Positions 1 to 15,600 of a stretch of 15,876 bases of DNA are shown here, piece by piece; the stretch's first letter is position 1; every line of letters starts with the position of its first letter. A program made the translations under genes and the position numbers. Location: UHGV virus genome UHGV-0274280. One strand, 5' to 3'. The notes under the pieces are model-generated. The model was not told where the DNA came from, did no database searches, and worked only from the letters and a program-made list of their open reading frames with translations. The stretch comes from a virus.

Positions 1-143
1 GTATATACAAACCCACAAACCAAATTTTCGTTCATAGCATATATTAAGTTTGTAAGATTGATTCCGTTATTTTCAATCGAACTGACGATTTTATGTTCAT
101 GCAAAGACATTTTATCAGATTTATTTTTAATTAAATTATTCAT
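1..143 (-). CDS. hypothetical protein, 5' part only (gene continues beyond window start)
   Basis: ATG at 143 with AAGGAG 6 nt upstream; frame stays open to the window edge (MNNLIKNKSDKMSLHEHKIVSSIENNGINLTNLIYAMNENLVCGFVY...). The ATG lies 8 nt inside the upstream recombinase gene, suggesting translational coupling. Not in the ORF track because under 60 aa within the window. AT-rich. Confidence 0.35.
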   Translation of the reverse strand, partial: MNNLIKNKSDKMSLHEHKIVSSIENNGINLTNLIYAMNENLVCGFVY

Positions 144-1338
144 CAAATTCTCCTTTGAATAGTTGCTCTTGTTGTTCAAGTGCAGTTTTTTTCGATAGCT
201 CATAAATATGCCTGCGATTATAAATCATTGAAGTTTCTGAACCCGGTCGCCATCCCATGAGATAAGAACGGATTTGTTGCTCTTTTTCATCGGATATGTC
301 CTGATTCTTGTCTATTGCTTTCGAAAACTCATAATTCCATGTATGTCTGAGTTTGTGACCTGTCAATCCCCCTAGAAGTGAGGAGGATTGACGAACAACA
401 CTCACCACTTTGTGATATGAAGAAAATGAAATAGGTTGCCCTTGAGTTTTTCCTTCCTTATAAGTAATAAACAGGAAATCATGTTTGTTAGAATTTTTTA
501 TGTTTCTTCGATCATTCAGAATATAATCTGAAATTTCAAACATGAGCTTTTTATCAGCAATTAATTTCCTCTCACAAGTTTTAACTAAAGGCTGATACAC
601 TCGCGGATCTGTTTTATCATTTGCTCTTCTTCTTATTGCAATTGTCGATTCTGCAAAATCTATATCACCCATTCGCAGATTCAAAAGTTCACCTGCTCTC
701 AGGCCAAAGCAGTGTAATAGCAGGAATATTAGATTGTTTCTTTTTTGCACTTTTTCTGAAAATGGATTTAATTTGCTACCCGGTGCAAGAATGCTAAACA
801 AAGAATCCAATTGTTCATTATTTAAACTTTTTTCTTTATCCATAGTATATTTATCATTATTTCTCGGTTTCTTTCGTTTTATGTTGTTAATGAAATCTAA
901 AATATATTTGAGAGTATCCTTCTGTCCTGTATGAGAAAGATGTATTTTGCACAGCCATTCCAGATAGTTAGCTATGGTTGTTATCCGAAAGTACTTAGTT
1001 GGTTTTTTGACATTTGAACTTCTAAAATTATCATTCTCGCCATCTCGAAAATTGAATGAAGTGAATTCGATCAAATCTTCAATTTCATGAGGAGCCAGAA
1101 ATATCCTTTTCTGAATTCTTTCATCAATATTGATATTTTTTCTCATAAAGAATCGATATAACAATGAAATGCTCCCAGCGATAACCTTCATTGTTGATAT
1201 AGACTCTGACCGATTCCTGACTTGTGTTGTTATATACAAGTTTGGATAATACAATGGCTCACCAGTATCTTTATTTACAACATGACAATATCTCTCACCA
1301 TTTTCGAACATAAAAGAATCCACACAAATACTGCACAT
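136..1338 (-). CDS. tyrosine-type site-specific recombinase / integrase-family protein (400 aa)
   Basis: Catalytic-domain signatures of the tyrosine recombinase family: box I-like LLLHCFGLRAGELLNLRMGDID (Arg), HKLRHTW (H-x-x-R), C-terminal SMIYNRRHIYE (candidate Tyr). ATG at 1338 with AGGAGG 5 nt upstream. Very AT-rich, unlike the other two integrases. Confidence 0.65.
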   Translation of the reverse strand: MCSICVDSFMFENGERYCHVVNKDTGEPLYYPNLYITTQVRNRSESISTMKVIAGSISLLYRFFMRKNINIDERIQKRIFLAPHEIEDLIEFTSFNFRDGENDNFRSSNVKKPTKYFRITTIANYLEWLCKIHLSHTGQKDTLKYILDFINNIKRKKPRNNDKYTMDKEKSLNNEQLDSLFSILAPGSKLNPFSEKVQKRNNLIFLLLHCFGLRAGELLNLRMGDIDFAESTIAIRRRANDKTDPRVYQPLVKTCERKLIADKKLMFEISDYILNDRRNIKNSNKHDFLFITYKEGKTQGQPISFSSYHKVVSVVRQSSSLLGGLTGHKLRHTWNYEFSKAIDKNQDISDEKEQQIRSYLMGWRPGSETSMIYNRRHIYELSKKTALEQQEQLFKGEFDE

Positions 1339-1446: not shown

Positions 1447-1539
1447 ACAGTGAGATAGACGATTATTCTTGTCAAATTATCATCTGGTAGATCTAGTTAT
1501 TATTATGTACACCTAATACTTTGAAAACTATCTCACTGT
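1447..1539. repeat. perfect 12-bp inverted repeat pair (ACAGTGAGATAG at 1447-1458, CTATCTCACTGT at 1528-1539) flanking a 69-bp spacer
   Basis: Read directly from the sequence; lies in the 5' intergenic region of the recombinase gene. Confidence 0.7.
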
Positions 1540-1620
1540 CTTGCTAATAAACGGCAACCAAAATAATGTAAGTTATTTTGTAAGGTTTTAAGCCAAAATA
1601 TGGGGCCAAACTTTACATTT

Positions 1621-1935
1621 TTACAAAAGAGTTTTCAGCCCAATCTGATATCGAATTATCCGTTTCGATAAATTTCTAATTTCATCTGGGCATTTAATTA
1701 GCGAGAACCATGTTTCATACACATAAAACTGTTCGAAAATATTAAGCTCAGAGATCGAATCTAACGGTTCTCTTAGATTCCCCACTAAATACTGGCTTAA
1801 CCAGTAAACAATCTTTCTGTTAAATTCATTATCAGGTAAATCGTAAATCGCTCCGGGTTCGAAGATTTTACAGAAAAGTTCCTGGCCCAGATTACACATA
1901 TGGTTATCTTCACTCACAAATTCTTCGATATTCAT
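1621..1935 (-). CDS. hypothetical protein (104 aa from ATG at 1935; the ORF track starts 5 codons earlier at a TTG)
   Basis: ATG at 1935 with GGGAGG 6 nt upstream; only 20 nt after the alpA stop, so probably co-transcribed. AT-rich, no recognisable motif. Confidence 0.45.
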   Translation of the reverse strand: MNIEEFVSEDNHMCNLGQELFCKIFEPGAIYDLPDNEFNRKIVYWLSQYLVGNLREPLDSISELNIFEQFYVYETWFSLIKCPDEIRNLSKRIIRYQIGLKTLL

Positions 1936-1955
1936 AACATGCCTCCCCAAATTAA

Positions 1956-2171
1956 CTAAGCAACATTATTTCGACTTGTTTCGATAACAGACTGAATCCA
2001 GGCATCAATCTCACTTTCGACGAAAGCTACTGCACGAGTTCCAATTTTGACAGGGGCAGGAAACTTACCATCTTTGATCAGACGATAGACCCAGGCTTTG
2101 CCGAAACCAGTTCGTTTCAAGACTTCGGGTAAACGAATTAAGCTTTGATTGGTTGTATCGGTTGTATTCAT
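1956..2171 (-). CDS. alpA: AlpA-family phage transcriptional regulator / excisionase-like HTH protein (71 aa)
   Basis: LIRLPEVLKRTGFGKAWVYRLIKDGKFPAPVKIGTRAVAFVESEIDAWI follows the AlpA pattern (RLPEV..TG.....Y......FP.P.K.G.R.....E...W). Strong RBS GGAGGAGG 7 nt upstream of the ATG at 2171. Confidence 0.75.
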   Translation of the reverse strand: MNTTDTTNQSLIRLPEVLKRTGFGKAWVYRLIKDGKFPAPVKIGTRAVAFVESEIDAWIQSVIETSRNNVA

Positions 2172-2337
2172 TTGGCTACCTCCTCCGCTTCCGTTACGAA
2201 GATATTAGCCACACAGATTCGTATCTATGAAGGGAATGCTGATAACTGAAAAGTTAGATGAGGGAATAATGAAAGGAAATTCCGGGGAAGAAAAATATTT
2301 ACGCCCTCCCCTTGACAATTAACATGATGATTTACAA

Positions 2338-3147
2338 CTAGAAAGATCCGAGTTCCGAAATCGGTATGTTGCGGAGATGGCTGTTTTTGCTGATAAAATA
2401 TTCCAGACTACGGGTTGTTTCGCCATTCAATGACTTCTCTGCAACAGGCCTATCTGTATCTTTAATGTGATCTTCTCCTCTGATCTCATTTGTAAAGTCG
2501 GGATACAAGACACGAGACAAGACCATATTTGAGATTTTTACTTTTTTAAACTTTGCCCAAATCAATAAATCCATCATTGGGATAATATTGTAATCGACAA
2601 GTTTTCTTATTTTTGCAAGTCCAATTTTTTCTGTTTTCACTGGCTCAATTTCATATTCTTTTCTAAGATCTGGTAGCATCGTTTGTAAGGCTGTTATAAT
2701 TTCTTCATCGCTGGACATTCCTAAATCAAATGAAACATACATCTTGCTGCTATTTTGGTTTAGAAAAAAGTCCCTCATAGTTTTTGTAATTGGTTTCTTT
2801 TTCAACTCTTTTTTGAAATCGCCATTTTCTTCAAAAAAATCCATGCTAAACATTATTAACTTGTTCTCTAATTTTTTTATATCACCAAAGCTAACTTGCG
2901 CAACATGCCTTTGGCCCTTGCCAAAATGACCATGATTATTATCTTGTCTGCTTAAAATAGGATTACCTTCAAGGATAGACCTTAAATTTTGATTATCATC
3001 TTCCCATCCAAAATTTACACTGTCGAAAATCGCTTCTCTAAAGGCAAGCTCAGTATGCAGTTCTTTGATTGTAAGTGATTTTAACTGCTCATAGTTTTCG
3101 AGACTAAACCAGCTTTTTAATTCTTCATAAGGGCTTACTACTTTCAT
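2338..3147 (-). CDS. hypothetical protein, orphan cargo gene (269 aa from first ATG at 3147; 276 aa if the TTG at 3168 is used)
   Basis: Long ORF in AT-rich DNA between the P4-type integrase and alpA; GGAGG about 5 nt upstream of the ATG at 3147. No family recognised by eye. Confidence 0.5.
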   Translation of the reverse strand: MKVVSPYEELKSWFSLENYEQLKSLTIKELHTELAFREAIFDSVNFGWEDDNQNLRSILEGNPILSRQDNNHGHFGKGQRHVAQVSFGDIKKLENKLIMFSMDFFEENGDFKKELKKKPITKTMRDFFLNQNSSKMYVSFDLGMSSDEEIITALQTMLPDLRKEYEIEPVKTEKIGLAKIRKLVDYNIIPMMDLLIWAKFKKVKISNMVLSRVLYPDFTNEIRGEDHIKDTDRPVAEKSLNGETTRSLEYFISKNSHLRNIPISELGSF

Positions 3148-3204
3148 TAATCCCTCCACTGTATTCAAAGCTTGAATGAGTTAACACTGCTTATTTGAAT
3201 TAAT

Positions 3205-3232
3205 TCTCCCTTAACAAGATTGATAAGGGAGA
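3205..3232 (-). terminator. putative hairpin downstream of the P4-type integrase gene (8-bp stem TCTCCCTT / AAGGGAGA, 12-nt loop)
   Basis: Inverted repeat 27 bp past the int stop, followed on the minus strand by A/U-rich but not U-run sequence, so a weak intrinsic terminator at best. Confidence 0.3.
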
Positions 3233-3258
3233 GCGATTGATCATCTACTTATTCATAG

Positions 3259-4509
3259 TTAACTCTTTTTAAAATCAAATGGTGAAACTTGTCGTATTCT
3301 AAGGAGGTCAAGGTAATCGGCCCACCACTGCAACATAAGCTTTCTCTCATCAAGGTGCTCTGCTTTATGTATGTACGCAGCACGAACTGAGTTCCGCTCC
3401 TGATGGCTCATTTGCCGTTCAACAGCATCTTTCGACCACAAACCGGATTCAATTAAAGCACTACAAGCCATAGCTCTGAATCCATGTCCACAGACCTCCA
3501 CGGTTGTGTCATAGCCCATAGACCTCAAAGCCTTGTTTACCGTATTTTCACTCATGGGCTTTCTGAAATCATGGTCGCCAATGAACACGAGTTCATGGTC
3601 ACCGCTGATCTCTTTAATTTCCGTCAACACAGCCAATGCCTGACAACTCAAAGGAACAAGGTGTGGAGTTCGCATTTTCGAACCACGATGCGAATGTTTC
3701 ACTCCGGGTAATGGCTCTCGCTCTGCAGGAATAGTCCACATGGCATTGTCGAAATCTATCTCTGACCAACGAGCAAACCTGAGTTCACTCGAACGAATAA
3801 AAATGAGCAATGTAAGCTTTACGGCTAACTTCGTGAGCTTTCTACCTTTGAATATTTCAATTCGCTCTAGGAGTTCAGAGAAGCGATCAAACGGTAATGC
3901 CGGTCGGTGGGTTCTTTTTGCTACAGCAATAGCCCCAGACATTTCTTGGGCCGGATTATAGTCAATTAAGCCATTCTGGACGGCATATCGCAAAATTGCT
4001 GTGGTTCGTTGTTGTAGACGGGCTGCTACTTCTAACCGTCCAGAAGCTTCAACAACCTTGATCGGAACGAGTAGATCCTTGGTTTTAAGCTCGGCTATTT
4101 TTCTCTTTCCTATGAAAGAGAAAAGGTTATCTTCAAGGCTCTTTAAAACCCTCTCACTATGGGAATCTGACCATTTCCTTTTACAGGCAGTATGCCAGTC
4201 CCTTGCAACAGCTTCGAATGTCAGGGCTTCGCTTTGCTCGATTTTGTCTGCTTTTTTCTTTTCTGAGGGGTCGAGACCAAGCGATACTAATTTTTTGGCT
4301 TCATCCCGTTTCTTGCGGGCTTCACTAAGAGAGACCATTGGATAAACACCCAATGCTAAAACTTTCTGTTTGCCATCGAAACGGTATTGGAGTCGCCAGT
4401 ACTTCGAGCCGTTAGGATTGATCAGCAGGTGCATACCCTGCCCATCGGTGAGTTTGAAGGGTTTGTCGGAGGGCTTGGTAGTCCTAACTTTGATATCGGT
4501 GAGAGCCAT
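3259..4509 (-). CDS. int: P4 / CP4-57-type tyrosine integrase (416 aa)
   Basis: N-terminal arm-binding region (KPSDKPFKLTDGQGMHLLINPNGSKYWRLQYRFDGKQKVLALGVYPMVSLSEARKKRDEAKKLVSLGLDP) typical of P4-like integrases; catalytic region with HGFRAMACSAL and ...RAAYIH. ATG at 4509 with GGAGG 9 nt upstream. Confidence 0.85.
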   Translation of the reverse strand: MALTDIKVRTTKPSDKPFKLTDGQGMHLLINPNGSKYWRLQYRFDGKQKVLALGVYPMVSLSEARKKRDEAKKLVSLGLDPSEKKKADKIEQSEALTFEAVARDWHTACKRKWSDSHSERVLKSLEDNLFSFIGKRKIAELKTKDLLVPIKVVEASGRLEVAARLQQRTTAILRYAVQNGLIDYNPAQEMSGAIAVAKRTHRPALPFDRFSELLERIEIFKGRKLTKLAVKLTLLIFIRSSELRFARWSEIDFDNAMWTIPAEREPLPGVKHSHRGSKMRTPHLVPLSCQALAVLTEIKEISGDHELVFIGDHDFRKPMSENTVNKALRSMGYDTTVEVCGHGFRAMACSALIESGLWSKDAVERQMSHQERNSVRAAYIHKAEHLDERKLMLQWWADYLDLLRIRQVSPFDFKKS

Positions 4510-4601
4510 CAGTTGATACCTCCAGTGTTGGTACCAAAATCAATCGAACCGGGAATACCATCAGTTATACCATCATCAGTTGGTATATGTTCAAGGAATT
4601 G

Positions 4602-4681
4602 AGTAGACGTAGACAGACTAAGAAAAGCCAGAAACCTGCTTAACTTACTGTTTTTATGGACTAAAGTAGACGTTAGTAGAC
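4602..4681 (+). repeat. direct repeats AGTAGACGT (4602-4610, 4665-4673) and AGTAGAC (4675-4681); putative arm-type integrase binding sites
   Basis: Three copies of the 7-mer core, two spaced 10 bp apart, between the integrase start and the tRNA-end fragment, where att arm sites are expected. Confidence 0.4.
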
Positions 4682-4698
4682 TTGAAAAAAGCTTTGTA

Positions 4699-4729
4699 TG
4701 GTGCCGAAGGCCGGACTCGAACCGGCACG
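4699..4729 (-). other. 31-nt tRNA 3'-end fragment (T-arm, acceptor 3' strand, CCA); leuX / tRNA-Leu-like; putative att core or direct repeat
   Basis: Reverse complement reads CGTGCCGGTTCGAGTCCGGCCTTCGGCACCA: T-stem GCCGG/CCGGC, T-loop TTCGAGT, CCA end. It matches my recollection of the last 31 nt of E. coli leuX. The upstream sequence does not supply the complementary acceptor 5' strand (GCCGAAG), so this is not a complete tRNA gene. Confidence 0.6.
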
Positions 4730-4862
4730 GGTTTAGGCGGCTTAGCTTGCTTCAATAATCATCGTTAACTCGTTGAACTAGCTAGAATAAAGCTCATAAC
4801 CCCGGCACATTTCACAGACTGTTTAGCCATGAAAAAGCCCCGACAACATAACCGGGGTTTGT

Positions 4863-6071
4863 ATGAGTTTCAAGAGAGATCGTTATCTAGTTTTAGATCC
4901 CTGCGGGAATTACCTCGTGCGGATAGCTATCCCCAGCTATATGCGTCACCTGTTCCAAGGGAAACGCTACTTTATGAAAAGCACAGGGACACGAGACATA
5001 CGGCAAGCGCGATTGTTTCGCGATGCTATTGCTCTGGAATGGACTCGCTTACGGAATCTGCTAAAGCCACAAGGCGGCTCATCTGTAGACCAAATCATTG
5101 ATGAGCTACGCCGTGTCAGTGTGTACGCCAAGGAAGCCCCCGCATCGTTTGGTGCATCGATTCAGGCTTGCCCTTCCTTGCTAAAAATGCGTGATTTGTA
5201 CCTGCTTCAATACAGCGAGAAGCGAAAGCTAACCACGCTATCCAAGACCAATAAAGCCGTAGAGGTGCTGTTAACCCACCTGAAAAAGAAAGATGTTCAG
5301 TTGCGAGATATTAACCGAACCATAGTTACAGGCTGGTTAGATAAACTCAAAACTGAGCGAGCGCCCCAAACCATCCAGAACTATATCAGTGCACTGGCGC
5401 AGATATGGGATTTGGCACGCAATCGCTATCACGATGCGCCACAGGATAACCCTTGGCGTGGTCATGCACTCGAAGCAAAAAGCAGCAAGGTCAGCTATGA
5501 AGTCTTCGCACCGGGAGAGCTGGCAAAGGTCTATACCTTGCTTGATGACGAGATGAAGGCGGTAACGGCTATTGGTGCTTACAGCGGTATGCGGATCAAT
5601 GAAATATGTACGCTGCGTGAGAGCAGTATTAAAACCATCGAGGGCGTTTTGTGCTTTGAGATCACCGAGGGGAAGACCAAGAGCGCGGCACGAATCGTCC
5701 CAGTACACAGCAAGCTAATCCCCCTCGTGAAATCATTGCTCAAAACCACACATAGCGGTTTTCTGTTCTATCACGCGTCAATTACAGACCGGGCGGATGG
5801 GAAGCGCTCAACGTGGCATACGCAGCAGTTCACACGGGCAAAGCGTAAAGCTCTTGGCGAACTTGCCGCAGAGAGAAAAGTGTTTCACTCACTCCGCCAT
5901 GCGTTTGTGCAACAACTCGACCGTGCTCAAGTGCCAGAAGATAGGATCGCTCTGCTTGTAGGCCACGAACGAGGTAGCACTGAGAGTTTTAAGACATATT
6001 CAAAAAACGCAGCATCCCCTTTAGAGATGCGCCGGTATATTGAATTAATAGATTATGAATTAATTAAATGA
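4863..6071 (+). CDS. int: tyrosine-type phage integrase (402 aa), different family from the P4-type one
   Basis: N-terminal YLVRIAIPSYMRHLFQGKRYFMKSTGTRDIRQARL pattern common to phage/island integrases; C-terminal HSLRHAF (H-x-x-R) and LLVGHERGSTESFKTYSK (candidate Tyr). Transcribed away from the tRNA fragment. Confidence 0.8.
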   Translation: MSFKRDRYLVLDPCGNYLVRIAIPSYMRHLFQGKRYFMKSTGTRDIRQARLFRDAIALEWTRLRNLLKPQGGSSVDQIIDELRRVSVYAKEAPASFGASIQACPSLLKMRDLYLLQYSEKRKLTTLSKTNKAVEVLLTHLKKKDVQLRDINRTIVTGWLDKLKTERAPQTIQNYISALAQIWDLARNRYHDAPQDNPWRGHALEAKSSKVSYEVFAPGELAKVYTLLDDEMKAVTAIGAYSGMRINEICTLRESSIKTIEGVLCFEITEGKTKSAARIVPVHSKLIPLVKSLLKTTHSGFLFYHASITDRADGKRSTWHTQQFTRAKRKALGELAAERKVFHSLRHAFVQQLDRAQVPEDRIALLVGHERGSTESFKTYSKNAASPLEMRRYIELIDYELIK

Positions 6072-6084
6072 AATGCTTAGAGAA

Positions 6085-6106
6085 GAAGCCGAATAATATC
6101 GGCTTC
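6085..6106 (-). terminator. putative intrinsic terminator hairpin (GAAGCCGA-ATAATA-TCGGCTTC) between the convergent integrase and 157-aa genes
   Basis: 8-bp GC-rich stem with 6-nt loop directly after the stop of the minus-strand 157-aa gene and 14 nt after the integrase stop; U-rich stretch follows on the minus-strand transcript. Confidence 0.4.
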
Positions 6107-6580
6107 CTATGCAGCCGCTTCTGTTATACGTTCTCGATATTGTTTAGCTTCATCTATCCACATTTGTATTGCTTCTTGATTGTCCCAATTTGCATGGGCA
6201 TCATGATCAATAAAATCAACAATATAGTAGTGCCTTGTACCTGAGAATACAAAATACGAATATATCAAATAGCTGTTACTTTTACATTTCCATTGTACCA
6301 GTGGATGCCCATTGTCATCCTCCCAGACACTGTCTTCCTGCCTCACATGTAGATGTGTTAAACCTTCTCTTTTCTGATGATACGGCTTATCTTCATCAAC
6401 ATTGTCCCTATCTCTGCCAAAGAGCAGCGAAATAGATGCAAAAAGTTTTTGGATGGAATATCGGGGGCGGGAATGCTCTGCACTTAGTTGCTTATAGCGA
6501 CAGAACTCCTGATAAAAAGGAAGAAACTCGCCATCATTGGCGAGTTTTTCACAGCAATCAAACTCAATTGCAAGCGGCAT
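6107..6580 (-). CDS. hypothetical protein (157 aa), AT-rich moron gene
   Basis: ORF whose ATG at 6580 lies inside the 3' end of the upstream small ORF; AT-rich relative to the flanking operon; no family recognised. Confidence 0.5.
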   Translation of the reverse strand: MPLAIEFDCCEKLANDGEFLPFYQEFCRYKQLSAEHSRPRYSIQKLFASISLLFGRDRDNVDEDKPYHQKREGLTHLHVRQEDSVWEDDNGHPLVQWKCKSNSYLIYSYFVFSGTRHYYIVDFIDHDAHANWDNQEAIQMWIDEAKQYRERITEAAA

Positions 6581-6719
6581 GTACTTTACTGTATTCAGCT
6601 AAACGCTCATCAGTTTCTCTGGAACTTTTACGCGCTACAGTACGCGTTGTCTTGATAAGAGCATTCAGAGCATCCCTACTCATACCAGTCGATACGGGGC
6701 TGATTTTCGCCTTTGTCAT
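6564..6719 (-). CDS. hypothetical small protein (51 aa; start chosen at ATG 6719)
   Basis: ATG at 6719 with AGGAGG 7 nt upstream (aacAGGAGGtacaatATG); its 3' end overlaps the start of the 157-aa gene by 17 nt. The ORF track extends it to 6758 without RBS support. Confidence 0.4.
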   Translation of the reverse strand: MTKAKISPVSTGMSRDALNALIKTTRTVARKSSRETDERLAEYSKVHAACN

Positions 6720-6780
6720 ATTGTACCTCCTGTTTTTCGGTGATTGGCCTGCACACATTGTAGGCAGTTATTTTAAGTGG

Positions 6781-6809
6781 AGATTACGCAATCTACATCA
6801 ATCCGTCAA
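6781..6809 (-). promoter_or_regulatory. candidate sigma70-like promoter for the 51-aa/157-aa pair (-35 TTGACG, 17-bp spacer, -10 TAATCT)
   Basis: Hexamers read on the minus strand about 60 nt upstream of the ATG at 6719; the -10 matches consensus at only 3 of 6 positions. Confidence 0.25.
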
Positions 6810-6896
6810 GAATTGTTTTAAATACGAGCAAGTAAATAGGCAGCCACAGCAACATGTAACCTCATGAAAATAAAATAAATAGAGCCATGACCAATG

Positions 6897-7325
6897 TTAT
6901 GCTGGATAAATAATACCCAGCCCCTTGTAGTGGCGGCGGTAGGCTGGTAGCATGAAATTCATGCTACCGGGTGAGAGTCCACACACCCGCCCTACATAAT
7001 AGCCACCCTCAGCAGCATTAGCAGAGCGATGCACCACAGCACGCACGCGCCCGGTTCGGTGGCAGTGATCCAGCACGGCAGACGCAAGGCGCAGCGGCTT
7101 ACCTGTCACCGCACAGCGTCGGTATTGATAATTCCACAGGAAGACACGGACAGCGGCCACATCAGCGCGGCGCAACTCCAGCCGCCCGGAACCATTCAAC
7201 AGGAAGCGATAAACATCTTCGAATGCAGCAGCGTTTGTAATCCGTTCCGCCAGTGGCATATTGCCAAGGTGTTCCAGATAGCCCCGCATAGCTTTTCTTA
7301 ATAGCTGGTCTGTCCGTGTAACCAT
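6897..7325 (-). CDS. endonuclease VII-like (T4 gp49-type Holliday-junction resolvase family) protein, divergent (142 aa)
   Basis: CAVTGKPL...LDHCHRTGRVRAVVHRSANAAEG resembles the Endo VII core (C..C...LDHDH..G.VRGLLC..CN.AEG) but the second Cys pair is replaced by His/Ala. Confidence 0.55.
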   Translation of the reverse strand: MVTRTDQLLRKAMRGYLEHLGNMPLAERITNAAAFEDVYRFLLNGSGRLELRRADVAAVRVFLWNYQYRRCAVTGKPLRLASAVLDHCHRTGRVRAVVHRSANAAEGGYYVGRVCGLSPGSMNFMLPAYRRHYKGLGIIYPA

Positions 7326-7597
7326 GATTCAAAGTCTCCATTGTCAGATGAAGCCCGCTTGCAGGCTTCATATTCTTCGCACTGGCGCTGGCGTACCAAA
7401 GCATAAAGCTCATCGGCCAACGCATTAACGCGTTCGTCACTGATACCATTGCGGCGCATTAGCCCCAGCAGCTTACGAAACTCAGCTTCAAGCTCAGGCT
7501 CTCCGGTATCTATTACCCACTGTTTCAGGTAAGCAAGTGTGCCAGTCATTGGCGGCGGCTCGATGTACCGCCACCTTAATTTAATTGTGGTTATCAT
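7298..7597 (-). CDS. hypothetical protein (99 aa from ATG at 7597)
   Basis: ATG at 7597 with GAGAGGA about 9 nt upstream; overlaps the neighbouring genes at both ends. The ORF track's longer start at 7645 lacks an RBS. Confidence 0.4.
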   Translation of the reverse strand: MITTIKLRWRYIEPPPMTGTLAYLKQWVIDTGEPELEAEFRKLLGLMRRNGISDERVNALADELYALVRQRQCEEYEACKRASSDNGDFESWLHGQTSY

Positions 7598-8006
7598 CTT
7601 CTTTATCCTCTCTGTAAGCCGGGTGCATTGCCCGGTATTGCTCAATGGTCAAACCCTCGCTGGCCGCTGTAAGCCGTTCCTTTTGCTTACCTGCCAATCG
7701 CAAGGCGCTATCTCTCCAGCAAAGCAGAAAGAAGACGGTCAGCACCTGCTTACTCAAGCCATCCAGAAGATCGCCAAGCCCTTGATCCAGCAGACAGACA
7801 CGCCATGCAGCGGCGTGCTCAGTCATAGCACCGACTATCGGGACAGGTGCGCCAAGCATCGTCGCAAGCTGACTCATAACACTATTAGCATCGCCCGGAT
7901 GCAGCCGGGGAATAGACATGCGGCCAGCCTGCGCCAACAGTTCAGCGTACCGCTGGCGGCGTGGGTCATCATCTGCCAGCGCTCTAATCGGCTTTTCATC
8001 AGCCAT
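7581..8006 (-). CDS. hypothetical protein (141 aa)
   Basis: ATG at 8006 with GGAGG 9 nt upstream, 18 nt after the HNH gene stop; no motif recognised. Confidence 0.5.
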   Translation of the reverse strand: MADEKPIRALADDDPRRQRYAELLAQAGRMSIPRLHPGDANSVMSQLATMLGAPVPIVGAMTEHAAAWRVCLLDQGLGDLLDGLSKQVLTVFFLLCWRDSALRLAGKQKERLTAASEGLTIEQYRAMHPAYREDKEDDNHN

Positions 8007-8024
8007 TAATGGAACCTCCGAGGA

Positions 8025-8534
8025 TTAGGCAGCCTGCAATAAATCGGCTGGCGTTGAGGGATGGCATCTGGCTTTAGCTTTTAGATAGGCAGCACGCGCC
8101 GCCACTTCGGTAGTAAATAAGCCAAGGTGACGGAGTACACCATCAACGCGTATGTAAGCCTCCCATTTTCTACAGCCCTTATTCCAGCTATACCCCCTTG
8201 CCTTGCGTCGGTTCTGGTCGTTTTCCCGCTGCGTAACCAAGCGCAGATTGCATAGGCGATTGTCGTCACGGATACCGTTGATGTGATCGATCTGCTTACC
8301 ATGAGGAATAGCGCCATGCGCAAGAATCCACGCCACGCGATGGGCTTTTAGCTGGTACTGCTTGCCATCAAGTCGCAGGGCAACTTGACGATAGCCATCA
8401 GCTCGCCGGGTGGAGTCAGCATAGGAGCCAGCCTTAACCCGGCGTCGGTTAGCTTTATGGTGCAGGCGGCCTGTCACCGGGTCATACAGGAAAAGGGAAC
8501 ACAGCAGCTCAGGGGCGTAAGCATCATTAACCAT
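8025..8534 (-). CDS. HNH endonuclease with AP2-like DNA-binding domain (169 aa)
   Basis: HRVAWILAHGAIPHGKQIDHINGIRDDNRLCNLRLVTQRENDQN is a typical HNH_3-type motif, followed by GYSWNKGCRKWEAYIRVDGVLRHLGLFTTEVAARAAY (AP2-like). GGAGG 9 nt upstream of the ATG. Confidence 0.75.
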   Translation of the reverse strand: MVNDAYAPELLCSLFLYDPVTGRLHHKANRRRVKAGSYADSTRRADGYRQVALRLDGKQYQLKAHRVAWILAHGAIPHGKQIDHINGIRDDNRLCNLRLVTQRENDQNRRKARGYSWNKGCRKWEAYIRVDGVLRHLGLFTTEVAARAAYLKAKARCHPSTPADLLQAA

Positions 8535-8550
8535 GACTCAGCCCCTCCAG

Positions 8551-9546
8551 TTATGCAGCTTGTCGGAAATTGATAACGCAGTCAGGACGACGCAGCCCAA
8601 CGTTGAACAGGCGATATGAGTCCATCACCATTGTCATTTCGCGTTCATCATCCCACTGGCGATTGATGACGCTCTGCGCTTCGACCGTCAGCAGCACAGA
8701 GGAAGGTTTAAACAGCGTCGCCCTCGTCATCGCTTCCTCTGCGGTAACGTCATAATCAGCGCCCAGTTCATGCCCGGTAATGACTTCCTGCGGGTAACTG
8801 TTCAGCTCAATGACTCGCACCCCAGCGACATAGCCAACGCGACGCCATGCGTAATCGTTGCCACTATCCCGGCTGTAACGGACGTTCATCAGCTTCTTAT
8901 GTTCCATCAGGATGCTGAACCATGCAGGGTCAATGAGAAGCACCAGCTCGGCCACCGGAATATCTTTCTCAGTGAGGAAGCGATTAGCAGCCGCTTTGAC
9001 GGCGTGAACCAATTCGTTTGCGGCGTCCTCTTCGCTCCCCGCTGTCAGGTCGAGCGAGACAACGTTATTCGTAAGCGGGTTAAACGTTGGTTGCAGTGTC
9101 GGCGGCGGTACAAAGTCAGTCGCTTTGATTAACTGGATGGTGTGCGCTTCGTCGTAGAACTTAGCGTGCGCAGTGCCGATATTGCGGCTCAGCTCTGCGC
9201 GAAATGTGGGTGCTGTCCAATCGTCCTGATAGTCAATCGGGACGCGGATATAACTCAGCGTATCCACAGAGATAACCAACTTGTCCGACTTAACGGCGGT
9301 AGGCTCCAGCGATTGCCCTGCGGTTCTGCCCTTCACCTCAAGATCACCACTCAGGCGATCAATGCGGTATTGGTTGCTGCCTTTCAGCGGCCTGTATGTA
9401 GACAGCCCCTCGGCCAGAAATACGGATTTGGACTCTAAACGGGTCTGGACATCCCGGTCATAAGCCTCGATGTGAATATCATTGTCGGATTCCACCCCGC
9501 CATAATGTGGGCGAAACAGATCGGGACTGTACGAAGTATCAGCCAT
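8551..9546 (-). CDS. major capsid protein homolog, T7 gp10-like (331 aa from ATG at 9546)
   Basis: By-eye block alignment to T7 gp10A from memory: KLVISVDTLSYIRVPIDYQDD...RAELSRNIGTAHAKFYDEA vs KVITIDGLLTADVLIYDIED...RSEYTSQLGESLAMAADGA, and FLTEKDIPVAELVLLIDPAWFSIL vs LTKNYVPAADRVFYCDPDSYSAIL. Similar length (T7 gp10A is 345 aa). AGGAG 8 nt upstream of ATG 9546; the ORF track start at 9591 has no RBS. Confidence 0.6.
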   Translation of the reverse strand: MADTSYSPDLFRPHYGGVESDNDIHIEAYDRDVQTRLESKSVFLAEGLSTYRPLKGSNQYRIDRLSGDLEVKGRTAGQSLEPTAVKSDKLVISVDTLSYIRVPIDYQDDWTAPTFRAELSRNIGTAHAKFYDEAHTIQLIKATDFVPPPTLQPTFNPLTNNVVSLDLTAGSEEDAANELVHAVKAAANRFLTEKDIPVAELVLLIDPAWFSILMEHKKLMNVRYSRDSGNDYAWRRVGYVAGVRVIELNSYPQEVITGHELGADYDVTAEEAMTRATLFKPSSVLLTVEAQSVINRQWDDEREMTMVMDSYRLFNVGLRRPDCVINFRQAA

Positions 9547-9744
9547 AAACAAAACTCCTACGTAGGTTGATGAAGCCCGCGCCATCGTCATGGCACAGAC
9601 GTGCGGAATCCTCCCGCCGAGGCAGGATTCAGAACGGTATCGATTAAAGGGATGAGGTGCCCCGAAATGGGCGTTTTGAGGCCAGAGCTGGCGCGGTTCT
9701 CAGGGGTTAGTGCGCGTGAAGTAAGGCGAACGTATTACCTTGCA

Positions 9745-10158
9745 TTAGTGCGCACTCATACGCGCCATGTTCAACACCTTCCGCACAGAGGTTTCAGACA
9801 CGCCAACCTTGCTTGCAATGTAACGATTCTTCTGGCCTTTTGCAGAGCGAACGATAATGTCAGCGCGTATCGCCTCAGTGATTACCTTGCGGGGTCTGGC
9901 TCGATTCTTCTCGTGCCGTTCACGTTCGCGCATCCGCTCGGCCATCTTCGGCGGCAGCACAGGGGAAAGCCCACGGCTAACGCCAGATGTGCGGGTGCCG
10001 GATGTGGCAGACCGTGCAACGATATAAACCGCTTCGTCTGGATTGAAAACGTGCGGCACACGCTCAGGGTAAACATGATCACATCTACCCAGCGGCAAGG
10101 CGAAATCCGGGCGCACGTCAGCGACACGCTCCACAGCATGGAAATTACAGGTACTCAT
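9745..10158 (-). CDS. HTH DNA-binding protein (137 aa); possible small terminase subunit or regulator
   Basis: C-terminal helix-turn-helix-like segment RYIASKVGVSETSVRKVL preceded by a basic stretch; GAGG 6 nt upstream of the ATG. Function not assignable from sequence alone. Confidence 0.45.
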   Translation of the reverse strand: MSTCNFHAVERVADVRPDFALPLGRCDHVYPERVPHVFNPDEAVYIVARSATSGTRTSGVSRGLSPVLPPKMAERMRERERHEKNRARPRKVITEAIRADIIVRSAKGQKNRYIASKVGVSETSVRKVLNMARMSAH

Positions 10159-10297
10159 TACGAACCTCGGTTAATTAAAAACAGGCTTTCAGATGCCGCG
10201 CAGAATGCGGCTTGCGGGGACTCATGCGCATAGATTGGTGTGGTAGTACCGGGTCGGTGCGCACTCGGTCTTGCAGGGCGCATTCCACAGTTGGGCG

Positions 10298-10978
10298 TTA
10301 GCGACCAGCACGTTTGCCAGCGGAGCGCTGCGCAACCAGAGCGCGGTATTGTTCATCGTACTGGCGATGGCCGGGGCCATACCCTGATTGCTGCGCCCAC
10401 TGCGAAAGCTGGTCATACGCTGCTATAAACTCAGCATGTGACATTCCGACAGGTTGCGCGGCAGTCTGGCCGTTCGGGACGTAACCGGTAATGGAACCGC
10501 CAGCCATACGCTCTTGCAGATACTGAACCGCACGCGACATCTGCGCGGGATCGCCAGACATGACCATCCGTTCAAGGGTTGATTGCGTCCCGGCGTCGAG
10601 CGTGCCAGCGTACTGCAACATCGCGTCAACTGTACCCTGACCTAGCTGGCTTTCGACAGACTGGTGAAACTGCCCCATCAGCCCATGAAGTTCAGGAGTC
10701 AACTCAACAGTGGTGCCATCCTGTAATTGCAGTGTGTCGCCCACTTGCGCCCCAGCGCTGTCAGCGTTCTGGTCTTGCTGATTTGCGATATTGCCATTAT
10801 TCCATTGTCCGCCATCATTGCCGTTAACGGGTTGGGTACGGAGGAAATCAGCATCAGCAGGCGCAGAGCTAAAGCGGGATGCTCCATTGTCAACTCCAAC
10901 AGGTGCAGCCATGTATGGCGATTGCTGCGATGCAGCATCAGCACCGGAAAGGTACGGATTAACATTCTGGTCAGACAT
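10298..10978 (-). CDS. acidic Q/N/G-rich low-complexity protein (226 aa); possible scaffolding or other assembly protein
   Basis: AGGAGA 7 nt upstream of the ATG; sits two genes upstream of the capsid gene. Composition is rich in Q, N, G, D and A. Confidence 0.45.
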   Translation of the reverse strand: MSDQNVNPYLSGADAASQQSPYMAAPVGVDNGASRFSSAPADADFLRTQPVNGNDGGQWNNGNIANQQDQNADSAGAQVGDTLQLQDGTTVELTPELHGLMGQFHQSVESQLGQGTVDAMLQYAGTLDAGTQSTLERMVMSGDPAQMSRAVQYLQERMAGGSITGYVPNGQTAAQPVGMSHAEFIAAYDQLSQWAQQSGYGPGHRQYDEQYRALVAQRSAGKRAGR

Positions 10979-10981
10979 AAA

Positions 10982-11221
10982 TTACTCTCCTGATAATGCT
11001 CTAAAGTCGTGTACCTGCGCTAACAACAGCATATGAACAGGCACACAACGTTCCGGCAGTTTGCGCACACCGTGATACGCTTTACCCATATCCCGACGAT
11101 CAACCTGATAGGCGTGGGCGAGGTCTGCCTGACTCACCTCAAGCGATTCAGAAATCAGCTTTAATTGTGCAGCCCAGTCTGTATTCTTGCGGGGCGGCAG
11201 CAATACGATAGTTTTGCTCAT
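10982..11221 (-). CDS. hypothetical protein (79 aa)
   Basis: ATG with GAGGA 6 nt upstream; its stop is 4 nt before the next gene's ATG. Confidence 0.4.
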   Translation of the reverse strand: MSKTIVLLPPRKNTDWAAQLKLISESLEVSQADLAHAYQVDRRDMGKAYHGVRKLPERCVPVHMLLLAQVHDFRALSGE

Positions 11222-11233
11222 GGTAATTCCTCG

Positions 11234-11470
11234 TTAAAGTAATCCACGTTTACGAAGCCAACGACGCTCACCAACGGAGCCGCGCGGGCGTTGTTTCGGA
11301 TTCTGGTTAAGTGTTTGGCTGGGGTCAGTTCGACCTTTCCCGGTCAGGTTCTGCGTCAGCACATCCCAACCCCGTGATTCAATCGGAGCGTATCCTTCGC
11401 GTTGTTCGTCAAGGTTCACGTAGAGATCAGGGTTAACGGCGGGGTGCAGCGGTTCGTTCTCTGCCATCAT
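11234..11470 (-). CDS. hypothetical protein (78 aa)
   Basis: Start ATG overlaps the stop of the upstream gene (ATGA), indicating translational coupling. Confidence 0.4.
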   Translation of the reverse strand: MMAENEPLHPAVNPDLYVNLDEQREGYAPIESRGWDVLTQNLTGKGRTDPSQTLNQNPKQRPRGSVGERRWLRKRGLL

Positions 11471-12030
11471 TCAGCCTCGCTGAATTTGGAGTTAACAGAC
11501 TCCAGAGTATCCGGGTACGACCAACGATTTCTCAGGCAGCGTTGCACATGCGCGACGACCTCAACAGGGACGCCCAGCTTCCCGGCGATCTCCGCAGCAG
11601 GCCAACCGAAGCGCTCTAACTTGTGGATTTCATCTAAATCAGTAGGCACTAACTTGCGCACTACTTTCGGCTTCGCTGGCTTCACCTTCAAGGGTTTCTG
11701 TACCGGGTGCGTGTGGGCGTTGCTAAAGCGGGAATGGGCGATAGCCAGCACCGTCTCAGGGCGAATCAGCATATCGCGGGCAATCATAAACTCTGTATCG
11801 CGGTGCAGCTTGCCGGGCTTATAGCGGCTGCGGATGGCGTTGTACTCCGCCAGATTAATATCAGCATCGTCTTTCCAATGTTCGGCCAAGTCATCGACAT
11901 AGGCGCCACGGATTACTGCATCAATATCGGTCAGGGTATGACCTGTCTCCGCTGCAATCTCTTCATTGTTCTTTAGGTGCTTATGAGCCAGCGCGTTAAT
12001 GCGCTGGATATCGGTAATACTCAAAGTCAT
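11467..12030 (-). CDS. putative DNA-binding protein (187 aa) with C-terminal sigma-70 region-4-like HTH
   Basis: DLDEIHKLERFGWPAAEIAGKLGVPVEVVAHVQRCL resembles a region-4/LuxR-type HTH; GGAG 9 nt upstream; ATGA overlap with the upstream ORF. Confidence 0.5.
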   Translation of the reverse strand: MTLSITDIQRINALAHKHLKNNEEIAAETGHTLTDIDAVIRGAYVDDLAEHWKDDADINLAEYNAIRSRYKPGKLHRDTEFMIARDMLIRPETVLAIAHSRFSNAHTHPVQKPLKVKPAKPKVVRKLVPTDLDEIHKLERFGWPAAEIAGKLGVPVEVVAHVQRCLRNRWSYPDTLESVNSKFSEAE

Positions 12031-12203
12031 AAATTAAACTCCGAATCAAATTTGATCTGGTCAGTAACCAACGTGTGAATCAGCGCAAGGCTTGACGCGG
12101 TGTGTGTGCCCGACTTGCGGGCGTTGTCGTACATGAAGCGGACTACACGTTGATATTTCTCCGGCAGCGTGGCGAACCATTGCCGGAACTGTTCAGGGGT
12201 CAT
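12027..12203 (-). CDS. hypothetical small protein (58 aa), absent from the ORF track
   Basis: MTPEQFRQWFATLPEKYQRVVRFMYDNARKSGTHTASSLALIHTLVTDQIKFDSEFNL; its start overlaps the upstream stop (caATGAcc) and its stop overlaps the downstream start (ttATGAct), closing an apparent 170-bp gap in the operon. Confidence 0.35.
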   Translation of the reverse strand: MTPEQFRQWFATLPEKYQRVVRFMYDNARKSGTHTASSLALIHTLVTDQIKFDSEFNL

Positions 12204-12409
12204 TGGTCGTCATCCTCCGGGAACACGTTGTTAAAGGTTGTATCAGGCGAGTCGGCGGCGTTCTGCTTGAGGAAGTTCACGCAGGATGACAACTCGGCAG
12301 CAGCCATGCGTGACTCTCCCGCCTCGTCCTCCTTAAGCCTGCGCGTCAACGCACCCAGCAGCAGGGTTTTTAGTTCCCATGCTCCGGCTTCAAATTCAGA
12401 TTTCGTCAT
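12200..12409 (-). CDS. hypothetical protein (69 aa)
   Basis: ATGA overlap with the upstream 145-aa gene; acidic C-terminus. Confidence 0.4.
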   Translation of the reverse strand: MTKSEFEAGAWELKTLLLGALTRRLKEDEAGESRMAAAELSSCVNFLKQNAADSPDTTFNNVFPEDDDQ

Positions 12410-12843
12410 TGGTGGTTATCTCCAACTGGTAACAGGCCTAGCGCACGGATGTGCTGAATCACTTCTTGATGCACGGGCTTCGGCAGAAACAAACGGCGGG
12501 CAATGGCGGCGTAAACTTCATCAGGAGTCTTGCGTACCGGATGCACCCGGCCATTGAAAACCCGGTCGGACAACCGGACGGCTTTCCAGCGACGCGAGCC
12601 ATCCGGCCTTTTCATGCGGTTCAGTACAGCGGCCAGACACTCCCACGGCTCGCAATCATTCAGCAGGCAATATCGCTCCAGCGGTGTAAATACCTCGCGA
12701 ATGATGGCCTCACGATTAAGGGTCTTGCGATGAGGTTCGGCCAGTTCATCCCAGTTGTACCCATTCAGGGCGAAAGCTAGTTGTGCGGTGATGAGCGCAT
12801 CCGCACGCGCAGCACGACGCTGCGCATGTTCGGTAACAGGCAT
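12406..12843 (-). CDS. hypothetical protein (145 aa)
   Basis: ATG at 12843 with GGAG 8 nt upstream, 37 nt after the helicase stop; no motif recognised. Confidence 0.5.
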   Translation of the reverse strand: MPVTEHAQRRAARADALITAQLAFALNGYNWDELAEPHRKTLNREAIIREVFTPLERYCLLNDCEPWECLAAVLNRMKRPDGSRRWKAVRLSDRVFNGRVHPVRKTPDEVYAAIARRLFLPKPVHQEVIQHIRALGLLPVGDNHQ

Positions 12844-12880
12844 ATGATTAACTCCAGAGAATCAGGGAGAGCCTTTCGAC

Positions 12881-14725: not shown

Positions 14726-15114
14726 GGTGAAATCTCCAGAAAATAGGGGTAGGTATTAGCTCAGGTTGGGGCGGTGGTACAGGTGCGGCAGACTCTCTGC
14801 CCTTATAGAGGTTTTCATGTCGGCAACAGTGTCAGTGTCTTTATCTGCCTTAATAGTCACTTTCAAAATCGGAGAGTTTGTCGCGCTTCGGGAGTTATTC
14901 TTTCTCCTTAGTAGATACCTTCATTAGGTCAATTTTTAACCACAACCTCGCTAAGCCTTACTGAGCCTGGGCTGGCAATACTTAACAGCGCGATTTTTGT
15001 CGGTCAAAAGCGGGAAAGTAATGCTCTATATCTCCTTATTAGTAGCCTTTAAAATTAAAAATATAAGTTACTGATATCAATAGATAATTATGAAAGTGTC
15101 TATAGTGATATAGT

Positions 15115-15600
15115 ATCGCTAGATACGCAGAGCGAGCGCGGCGCAGCCGAAACAAGCGAGCGCCGAACTGATGACGGATGGCAGACCGTAGGACTGACAG
15201 ACGGCAGACAGTGAAGGCAGTAGGACAGGTGACAGACAGTAACCGTGACGGCGTGCCATAGCTGGCAGTAGCACAGCAGGCAGTAAGACCAATGACCGAC
15301 GGCTAAGACCTGAAAGGAAACGAAAAAGAAAGATGATTGAACGATACAGAAATGAATGAAGATGTTTTGAAGAATACCTACCGATAACAGTATATGATTG
15401 ATTAAATTAACAATACCGATAAAGAGTACCGTTCCACTACACATCCCCGCCGCGTTGCCTGCCACGGCAAGCACGGTTGCGTAGAGTCGCCGAGCATCAG
15501 CAGCGGGCGAAGACCGGGAATGAGCCAAAGGCGATGGAGCGGGCTGGAGCATAGCGAGAAGCGCAGCAAGTGAAGAGAGCGAAGCACTCGTAACTACATT
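15115..15600. repeat. T-depleted, purine-rich non-coding region with short degenerate repeats (GGCAG x5, GGCAGTA x3, GACAG x5, AGCGAGCGC x2, GCGAAG x3)
   Basis: About 10% T in sampled 60-nt lines between 15121 and 15300. GGCAG starts at 15180, 15203, 15216, 15264, 15279; GACAG at 15196, 15207, 15224, 15231, 15235. No ORF of 60 aa or more on the plus strand. Confidence 0.5.

What the first reader, a model, noticed from the sequence alone, without database searches (positions are those of the whole stretch)
4510..4862. Two unrelated integrases diverge from a 31-nt tRNA 3'-end remnant
Only the 3' 31 nt of a leuX-like tRNA is present, with no intact tRNA in the window. A P4-type integrase reads leftward from it and a second integrase reads rightward, each with its 5' end nearest the fragment. 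This looks like the junction of two elements that used the same tRNA 3' end as attachment site, or a rearranged att region.
Basis: partly seen in the sequence, partly recalled or inferred. Interest (0 to 1): 0.55.

Follow-up and report, generated by a model that had tools for sequence, protein, structure and literature searches.

The report
Two islands stacked at tRNA-Leu leuX
The 31-base tRNA scrap is the shared border between two separate mobile elements inserted one after the other into the same leucine tRNA gene (leuX), a well-known arrangement; the more interesting part is that the right-hand element looks like an undescribed parasite of T7-like phages.

Summary
Window 4699-4729 is an exact copy, on the minus strand, of the last 31 nt of E. 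coli tRNA-Leu(CAA) leuX. It is the only copy in the window, and no tRNA gene is present. A P4-type integrase (3259-4509, 59% identical to P4 Int) reads leftward from it. An integrase with no detectable sequence similarity beyond the shared catalytic domain (DUF6538 type, 4863-6071) reads rightward.

Left of base 4729 the window matches about 27 E. coli genomes in which the same island abuts an intact leuX. Right of 4730 it is 100% identical to E. coli EC09. There a 14.6-kb element runs on to an intact leuX whose 3' end is the second copy of the 31-nt core. By that homology the intact tRNA lies about 3.4 kb beyond the window's end. The fragment therefore serves as attR of the right element and attL of the P4-type island. 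This is ordinary island accretion at a known hotspot.

Side lead: the right element carries a capsid gene closest to Bonnellvirus (T7-like) phages. It also carries 165 nt of non-coding DNA that is 99% identical to those phages, and it is one third their genome size. It may be a new phage satellite.

The parts
4699..4729 (-). 31-nt 3'-terminal fragment of tRNA-Leu(CAA) leuX. It is the shared core: attR of the right-hand element and attL of the left-hand P4-type island.
   Evidence: Exact and unique match, with 0 expected by chance. Identical to the 3' end of intact leuX in 12 loci. Its first 19-20 nt equal the annotated P4 attP core.
3259..4509 (-). P4-type tyrosine integrase of the left-hand island.
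   Evidence: Pfam Arm-DNA-bind_3, Phage_int_M and Phage_integrase domains. 58.9% aa identity to P4 Int over 98% of its length. The same protein lies directly next to intact leuX in E. coli-, Salmonella- and Klebsiella-like contexts.
4510..4698 (.). Integrase-proximal att arm of the left island. It holds three copies of CCATCAGTT (4506-4514, 4558-4566, 4573-4581), which are candidate arm-type integrase sites.
   Evidence: 95-99% identical to the same interval next to intact leuX in many E. coli genomes. Repeats found. Their position parallels the arm repeats annotated in P4 attP. Their function is inferred.
4730..4862 (.). Integrase-proximal att arm of the right-hand element. It contains a hairpin plus T-run on the minus strand at 4838-4857.
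   Evidence: Identical sequence follows the core in EC09, LD26-1 and L006-L011, whatever lies to the left of the core. Terminator-like site found; its function was not tested.
4863..6071 (+). Integrase of the right-hand element: a tyrosine recombinase with a DUF6538 N-terminal domain.
   Evidence: Pfam PF20172 and PF00589. PHROG 1 integrase, E = 3e-35. Always at the tRNA-distal end of the element.
6107..14725 (-). Body of the right-hand element: YafO toxin, EndoVII-like and HNH nucleases, a major head protein (8551-9546), an HTH protein (9745-10158), small unknown ORFs, and a RecQ-like DEAD/DEAH helicase (12881-14725).
   Evidence: 100% DNA identity to EC09.
8551..9546 (-). Major capsid protein homologue, closest to Bonnellvirus (T7-like) phages.
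   Evidence: phrog_267 major head protein, E = 6e-70. 56% identity to the capsid protein of phage forsur; other podophages reach 43% or less.
15062..15291 (+). Non-coding block shared with Bonnellvirus phages. It includes an SP6-like phage-promoter-like motif at 15090-15109.
   Evidence: 88-96% identity to 15 phage records. 164/165 identical to LF82-23 over 15062-15226. In the phages it lies between the endolysin gene and the first early gene. The motif recurs in forsur intergenic regions.
1956..3168 (-). Left-island genes next to the integrase: DUF6387 (2338-3168) and an AlpA-type regulator/excisionase candidate (1956-2171).
   Evidence: Pfam. The same gene order occurs in all related islands.
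136..1338 (-). Third tyrosine recombinase, inside the left island.
   Evidence: Pfam Phage_integrase. Weak GmtY-like hit, far below the cut-off. In related loci it is followed by a 434-aa recombinase and a 624-aa protein.

Best explanation
Two independent integrative elements sit in tandem at the leuX tRNA-Leu(CAA) gene, and the 31-nt fragment is the att site between them. Each element carries a copy of the tRNA's 3' end in its attP. Integration by its tyrosine integrase rebuilds an intact tRNA at one end (attL) and leaves a 3'-end copy at the other end (attR). On the tRNA strand (the window's minus strand) the order is: intact leuX (outside the window, about 3.4 kb past its right end), then the 14.6-kb right-hand element with its DUF6538 integrase at the tRNA-distal end, then the 31-nt core at 4699-4729, then the P4-type integrase and its island (an integrative mobilizable/defence island about 20 kb long in relatives). 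The fragment is therefore attR of the right element and at the same time attL of the P4-type island. The P4-type island needs only the 3'-most 20-24 nt of the core. The divergent look of the two integrases follows from the elements' layouts: P4-type elements keep int at the tRNA-proximal end reading away from the tRNA, whereas the right element keeps int at its distal end reading inward. What is shown: the exact core, the homology breakpoints, the intact tRNA at the far end in identical elements, and the distal repeat of a related P4-type island. What is inferred: that this genome also has the intact leuX, that either element can still excise, and the order of arrival. Insertion of the right element into the intact tRNA and insertion of the P4-type island into the leftover fragment would give the same structure.
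For: The core is exact and unique. Window 1-4729 aligns at 92-94% to 27 E. coli genomes, always ending at 4729, where an intact tRNA-Leu continues. Window 4400-4729 is up to 99% identical to such loci. Window 4731-15876 is 100% identical to EC09, and 51 of 5426 complete E. coli genomes hold at least 80% of it. In EC09 the element ends at an intact tRNA-Leu next to ahr/yjgR, with core copies 14,625 nt apart. The same holds in ET82, LD26-1 and eight collection contigs, including Salmonella-like contexts, with variable DNA left of the fragment but always the same element sequence to its right. The P4 attP core equals the first 19-20 nt of the fragment, and the left integrase is 59% identical to P4 Int. 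A related P4-type island in CAVP776 has a distal repeat TGGTGC-GAAGGCCGGACTCGAAC about 19.5 kb from leuX. In LD26-1, L009 and L010 the fragments are hybrid: degenerate at the acceptor end and perfect in the T-arm. This fits later recombination between such a fragment and a downstream island's distal repeat. Another tandem case has a different DUF6538-integrase element and a 25-nt fragment next to the same P4-type integrase (L026).
Against: The window's own genome was not found in the collections, so its intact leuX and the distal end of its left island were not seen directly. An exact 45-nt attP junction for the right element was not found in viral, metagenome or genome contig collections, so there is no direct evidence of an excised form. 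That search required an exact match and is a weak test.
Confidence: 0.9

Rival explanations
1. The two elements now behave as one composite island. The internal fragment is a fossil, and mobility, if any, uses only the outer sites: the intact leuX and the distal repeat of the P4-type island.
For: Tandem arrays can co-excise through their outer att sites (general knowledge of tandem islands; not tested here). No excised form of the right element alone was found.
Against: Each element is found alone at leuX in many genomes, and this exact combination is absent from 5426 complete E. coli genomes. The internal core is a perfect 31/31 copy. Both integrase ORFs are intact. Hybrid fragments in other genomes suggest that the internal site does recombine.
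Confidence: 0.07
2. The att region was rearranged. For example, an inversion or deletion between att copies brought two integrase genes head to head and destroyed the tRNA.
For: Only the divergent orientation of the two integrases and the absence of a full tRNA in the window.
Against: The fragment has the same orientation relative to the P4-type integrase as the intact tRNA does in unoccupied loci. The right element has the same orientation, with int distal to the tRNA, in all 11 loci that contain it. The breakpoints fall exactly at the core edges, as site-specific integration predicts.
Confidence: 0.02
3. The fragment is a chance or decayed tRNA-like sequence with no role as an att site.
For: None beyond its short length.
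Against: 31/31 identity, with 0 matches in 200 shuffles even with 3 mismatches allowed. Its edges coincide with the two homology breakpoints. It contains the P4 core.
Confidence: 0.01

Closest known systems
Satellite phage P4 integration at leuX, and P4-like integrase islands such as the leuX-associated islands of E. coli and Salmonella
   Same: The left integrase has the P4 domain architecture and 59% identity to P4 Int. It sits directly downstream of the leuX 3' end in the same orientation. The fragment contains the P4 attP core, and short repeats lie between int and the core where P4 has arm sites.
   Different: The cargo is not P4. It comprises DUF6387, AlpA, a pair of extra tyrosine recombinases, and, in relatives, a relaxase and defence genes. 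The candidate arm repeat (CCATCAGTT) differs from P4's (ATGCCCCCAA). Here the island abuts only a tRNA fragment, not the gene.
Tandem arrays (accretion) of genomic islands at tRNA or tmRNA genes; leuX is a recognised hypervariable hotspot in E. coli and Salmonella (PMC4042001 and its reference to Bishop et al. 2005; PMC7545054)
   Same: An intact tRNA at one end, with 3'-end direct repeats between and after the successive islands, each of which has its own integrase.
   Different: Nothing essential. The particular pair of elements is not present in the 5426 complete E. coli genomes searched.
Phage satellites that carry a capsid-protein homologue and a helper packaging signal and are about one third of helper size (P4/P2; SaPIs; SaPIbov5 with its capsid homologue Ccm; cfPICIs). 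This comparison rests on my own knowledge of these systems.
   Same: The right element is 14.6-15.4 kb against 42.4 kb for Bonnellvirus. It has an integrase, its own helicase, a capsid homologue 56% identical to the candidate helper's, and a 165-nt non-coding block 99% identical to the phage.
   Different: The candidate helper is a virulent T7-like podophage. No portal, protease, terminase, AlpA or pri-rep genes were detected, so it does not fit the PICI, cfPICI, P4-like or PLE definitions. No induction or packaging has been shown.

Membership tests
tRNA-gene integrative element att site (attL/attR direct repeats) | A direct-repeat copy identical to the 3' end of the target tRNA lies at the element boundary. 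| tested here: met
   31/31 identity at 4699-4729, coinciding with both homology breakpoints.
tRNA-gene integrative element att site (attL/attR direct repeats) | An intact tRNA is regenerated at the other end of the element. | tested here: met
   Intact tRNA-Leu(CAA) lies at the far end in EC09 (100% identical element) and 10 other loci. It could not be checked in the window's own genome, which ends 3.4 kb short.
tRNA-gene integrative element att site (attL/attR direct repeats) | A tyrosine integrase gene lies adjacent to an att site. | tested here: met
   Both integrases start within 190 nt of the core.
tRNA-gene integrative element att site (attL/attR direct repeats) | An excised circular form (attP junction) exists. 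| tested here: inconclusive
   The exact 45-nt attP junction of the right element was absent from the viral, metagenome and genome contig collections. Only exact matches were searched, and no experiment was possible.
P4-type integrase | Arm-DNA-binding N-terminal domain, central domain and catalytic domain, with clear similarity to P4 Int. | tested here: met
   PF13356, PF22022 and PF00589. 58.9% identity over 98% of P4 Int. NCBIfam PRK09692 domain hit at 243 bits, below its 434-bit cut-off.
P4-type integrase | Uses the leuX 3'-end core of P4. | tested here: met
   The P4 attP core ATGGTGCCGAAGGCCGGACT overlaps the fragment. A related island has a 23-nt distal repeat of the same segment.
Phage satellite (right-hand element) | An integrative element lacking a full virion gene set but carrying helper-matched cis or trans packaging functions. 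| tested here: inconclusive
   The only virion gene found is a capsid homologue. A 165-nt block is 99% identical to Bonnellvirus non-coding DNA. The role of that block is unknown.
Phage satellite (right-hand element) | Helper-dependent induction, replication and packaging. | not testable with these tools
   Requires infection experiments.
PICI / cfPICI | int, alpA and pri-rep; for cfPICI also portal, protease, head-tail connectors and terS. | tested here: not met
   No AlpA, primase-replicase, portal, protease or terminase hits among the right element's proteins in Pfam or PHROGs. The replication protein is a RecQ-like helicase.
Gamma-mobile-trio (GMT) recombinase GmtY (third recombinase, 136-1338) | Reaches the NCBIfam GmtY equivalog score. 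| tested here: not met
   37 bits against a cut-off of 340. Only the trio-like gene order resembles GMT.

The most novel reading that the evidence does not exclude
The right-hand 14.6-kb element, one of the two elements that meet at the fragment, may be a previously undescribed kind of phage satellite that parasitises virulent T7-like (Bonnellvirus) coliphages. On this reading it lies dormant at leuX and is triggered on infection. The phage RNA polymerase may act on the SP6-like promoter motif inside the 165-nt block copied from the phage's genome-end region, which would also serve as a replication or packaging signal. The element would use its own capsid-protein homologue (56% identical to the helper's) to build or resize capsids for a genome one third of helper length. 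It would also carry a variable defence cargo next to leuX.
Probability: 0.4. Interest if true: 0.75.

Novelty: new member of a known kind. Interest (0 to 1): 0.3.

Why it matters
The junction itself matters little. It is a clean textbook example of islands accreting at a tRNA hotspot, and it shows that a 31-nt tRNA remnant can serve as attR of one element and attL of the next. It is mainly useful for correct annotation: the tRNA is not lost, and the two integrases belong to different elements. The right-hand element matters more. It is widespread: 51 of 5426 complete E. coli genomes carry it, and an identical helicase appears in 659 collection blocks, including Salmonella-like genomes. It is tightly size-constrained and carries a capsid gene and a cis-element matched to virulent T7-like phages. 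If it is a satellite, it would extend satellite biology to Autographiviridae-type lytic phages of enterobacteria. That is relevant to phage therapy and to how defence genes travel.

Tried and rejected
1. I looked for an intact or partial tRNA in the window with ARAGORN and with Rfam at E<=1, and found none.

2. I looked for further core copies in the window with up to 3 mismatches, and found none.

3. I tried to find the window's own genome.
- No complete E. coli genome holds this junction; the best is ET82 at 86%.
- The left and right halves match different genomes.
- Exact-protein look-ups for the helicase and the left integrase returned related contexts but not the source.

4. I searched for the reconstructed attP junction of the right element in viral, metagenome and genome contigs, with 0 hits.

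5. The single IMG/VR relative (L028) is an integrated copy with leuX, not a particle genome.

6. I first took the matching phages for Dhillonvirus siphophages. The records show they are Bonnellvirus, which is T7-like.

7. The ET82 variant of the element shares the integrase and att site, but its capsid gene has no close phage relative, and its only phage DNA matches are IS5. It gives no second helper pairing.

8. Partial similarity of the element arm beyond the core to the tRNA variable and anticodon arms (15 of 26 nt) is suggestive of an ancestral tRNA-like attP. I did not pursue it.

9. Literature searches for a satellite linked to Bonnellvirus or Autographiviridae found nothing relevant.

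10. I considered an inversion or rearrangement model and a chance match, and rejected both; see the rival explanations.

Full report
**1. The observation**

The intergenic region 4510-4862 contains, at 4699-4729, the sequence TGGTGCCGAAGGCCGGACTCGAACCGGCACG. This is the reverse complement of the last 31 nt of tRNA-Leu(CAA) leuX: 3 nt of the variable arm, the T arm, the 3' acceptor strand, the discriminator base and the encoded CCA. It is identical to the 3' end of the intact gene in twelve comparison loci. It occurs once in the window even with three mismatches allowed, and no match occurred in 200 dinucleotide-preserving shuffles. ARAGORN finds no tRNA in the window, and Rfam finds nothing at E<=1.

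The ORF 3259-4509 (-) has the Arm-DNA-bind_3, Phage_int_M and Phage_integrase architecture and is 58.9% identical to the integrase of satellite phage P4 over 98% of its length. The ORF 4863-6071 (+) has a DUF6538 N-terminal domain plus the Phage_integrase catalytic domain. BLASTP between the two gives no significant alignment (E = 4.6). Both 5' ends face the fragment.

**2. What the junction is**

Megablast of window 1-4730 against 5426 complete E. coli genomes finds 27 genomes that align over the whole stretch at 92-94%. The alignment always ends at base 4729, and in those genomes an intact tRNA-Leu continues from there. The integrase-proximal 330 nt are up to 99% identical to such loci.

Megablast of window 4731-15876 finds a 100% match in E. 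coli EC09, and at least 80% coverage in 51 genomes. In EC09 the same element sequence follows the same 31-nt core and runs on to an intact tRNA-Leu(CAA) that lies next to ahr and yjgR. The two core copies are 14,625 nt apart. In window-equivalent coordinates the intact tRNA would be at about 19324-19408, which is 3.4 kb beyond the window's end.

The same anatomy holds in LD26-1, in ET82 (a diverged variant) and in the collection contigs that encode the identical helicase. Some of those contigs have Salmonella-like flanks (miaE, rraB, argF). In each case an intact leuX, the element and a core copy follow in order, and the DUF6538 integrase is always at the tRNA-distal end. What lies beyond the distal core varies: P4-type integrases of several kinds, a true P4-like att arm in L008, a type I restriction system, a T6SS Hcp gene, or ScoMcrA/SymE. 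What lies on the element side is constant. So the two homologies overlap exactly in the 31-nt core, which is the signature of site-specific integration.

**3. How the two elements share the site**

The attP core annotated in the P4 record (X51522) is ATGGTGCCGAAGGCCGGACT, which covers the first 19-20 nt of the window fragment. In CAVP776, whose island is 94% identical to window 1-4729, a degenerate copy TGGTGC-GAAGGCCGGACTCGAAC lies about 19.5 kb from leuX. It is followed by an arm resembling P4's. P4-type islands therefore use the 3'-most 20-24 nt of the tRNA, while the right element shares 31 nt with it.

In the window the fragment is thus attR of the right element and attL of the P4-type island. 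Between the P4-type int start and the core there are three copies of CCATCAGTT (4506-4514, 4558-4566, 4573-4581). Their positions parallel the arm repeats annotated in P4. I infer that they are arm-type sites.

In LD26-1, L009 and L010 the fragment next to the DUF6538 integrase is degenerate at the acceptor end but perfect in the T-arm part. LD26-1 carries the same single-C deletion and the same flank as the CAVP776 distal repeat. This is what one would expect if a downstream P4-type island had been lost by recombination between the internal fragment and its own distal repeat. That is indirect evidence that such internal fragments are recombinationally active.

The order of arrival in the window cannot be deduced. 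Insertion of the right element into the intact tRNA would give this structure, and so would insertion of the P4-type island into the fragment left by the right element.

**4. Rival explanations**

- A rearranged att region is not supported. Orientations are the same in all loci, and the breakpoints coincide with the core edges.
- A chance match is excluded.
- A composite unit that moves only as a whole is possible but not favoured. Each element occurs alone in many genomes, and this combination is absent from the complete-genome set.
- No excised form was detected by exact-match scans for the reconstructed attP junction. This is a weak negative.

**5. Comparison with what is known**

leuX is a documented hypervariable integration hotspot in E. 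coli and Salmonella (PMC4042001 and the Bishop et al. 2005 paper it cites; PMC7545054). P4 itself integrates there. Tandem accretion of islands at tRNA genes, with 3'-end direct repeats between the islands, is a standard pattern. The junction is therefore an ordinary instance of a known kind.

**6. The right-hand element (a side lead)**

Between its att sites the element is 14.6-15.4 kb in nine loci, despite variable cargo next to leuX: an Eco29kI-type restriction-modification pair, DUF3800, or other genes. In the window it encodes:

- the integrase;
- a YafO toxin;
- EndoVII-like and HNH nucleases;
- a major head protein (phrog_267, E = 6e-70);
- an HTH protein;
- several unknown ORFs;
- a RecQ-like helicase.

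No portal, protease, terminase, tail, AlpA or primase-replicase gene was detected.

The capsid protein's best phage relative is the capsid of the Bonnellvirus phage forsur, at 56% identity. Other podophages reach 43% or less.

The 1.26-kb non-coding stretch after the helicase contains a block (15062-15291) that is 88-96% identical to 15 Bonnellvirus-like phage genomes. Over 15062-15226 it is 164/165 identical to phage LF82-23. In the phages this block lies in the 1.5-kb non-coding interval between the last late gene (endolysin) and the first early gene (SAMase). That is the genome-end region of these permuted records.

The block contains ATGAAAGTGTCTATAGTGAT. This is one mismatch from a motif that recurs in forsur just after the RNA polymerase gene, before the replication genes, and in the end region. 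It resembles SP6-type phage promoters; that resemblance is my own knowledge. Nothing else in the element matches forsur.

The element is about one third of the 42.4-kb phage genome, the same ratio as P4/P2 and SaPI/80-alpha (my own knowledge). These features fit a satellite of virulent T7-like phages. They do not fit the gene sets that define P4-like, PICI, cfPICI or PLE elements. Literature searches for a satellite linked to Bonnellvirus or Autographiviridae found nothing. No induction, replication or packaging has been shown, and the role of the shared block is unknown. I therefore rate this reading at about 0.4.

**7. Verdict**

As posed, the finding is ordinary: tandem islands at leuX. Interest is 0.3, the excess over a routine score being due to the right-hand element, which deserves its own follow-up.

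Noticed in passing
window 15062-15291 (non-coding; core 15062-15226): A block 88-96% identical to Bonnellvirus (T7-like) phage genomes, and 164/165 identical to phage LF82-23. In the phages it lies between the endolysin gene and the first early gene. It contains an SP6-like promoter motif (15090-15109) that recurs in forsur intergenic regions. It is a possible helper-derived replication or packaging signal.
   Followed up: partly
window 8551-9546 (-): A major capsid protein homologue, the only virion gene in a 14.6-kb integrative element. Its closest phage relative is the Bonnellvirus forsur capsid at 56% identity. Element size is constrained to 14.6-15.4 kb, about one third of the phage genome.
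   Followed up: partly
window 136-1338 (-), continuing left of the window (L005 6839-9338; L019 13172-17542): A third tyrosine recombinase inside the P4-type island. In related loci it overlaps a 434-aa recombinase gene and is followed by a 624-aa 'DNA-binding protein'. This trio resembles gamma-mobile-trio modules, but the GmtY score is far below the cut-off (37 vs 340 bits). It may be a nested mobile module.
   Followed up: partly
L003 25989-29323 and the equivalent stretch in L004 and L006-L013 (outside the window, between the serine recombinase and leuX): A variable cargo slot of the right-hand element next to attL: an Eco29kI-type restriction enzyme plus methylase in some copies, DUF3800 or unknown genes in others. 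A resolvase-family gene borders the slot. It looks like a defence-gene hotspot.
   Followed up: no
L004 8969, L009 20026, L010 20027; L017 35158: In some genomes the tRNA fragments next to the DUF6538 integrase are degenerate in the first 7-8 nt (acceptor/CCA end) but perfect in the T-arm part. LD26-1 shares its single-C deletion and its flank with the distal repeat of a P4-type island in CAVP776. This suggests that downstream islands were lost by recombination at the internal fragment.
   Followed up: partly
window 4838-4857 (-): A G+C-rich hairpin followed by CTTTTTC on the minus strand, immediately upstream of the DUF6538 integrase start codon. It is flanked by an 8-nt perfect inverted repeat, AACCCCGG/CCGGGGTT (4798-4805 / 4852-4859). 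Its function is unknown; it may insulate the integrase promoter region from read-through across the att site.
   Followed up: no
window 6107-6580 (-) and the small upstream ORF: A YafO-family toxin with a 51-aa upstream partner, called in related loci (e.g. L006 18007-18162). This is a likely toxin-antitoxin pair next to the right element's integrase.
   Followed up: no
window 4730-4755 compared with leuX: The element arm just beyond the 31-nt core matches the tRNA's variable and anticodon-arm sequence at 15 of 26 positions. This hints that the element's attP descends from a longer tRNA-Leu-like sequence.
   Followed up: no
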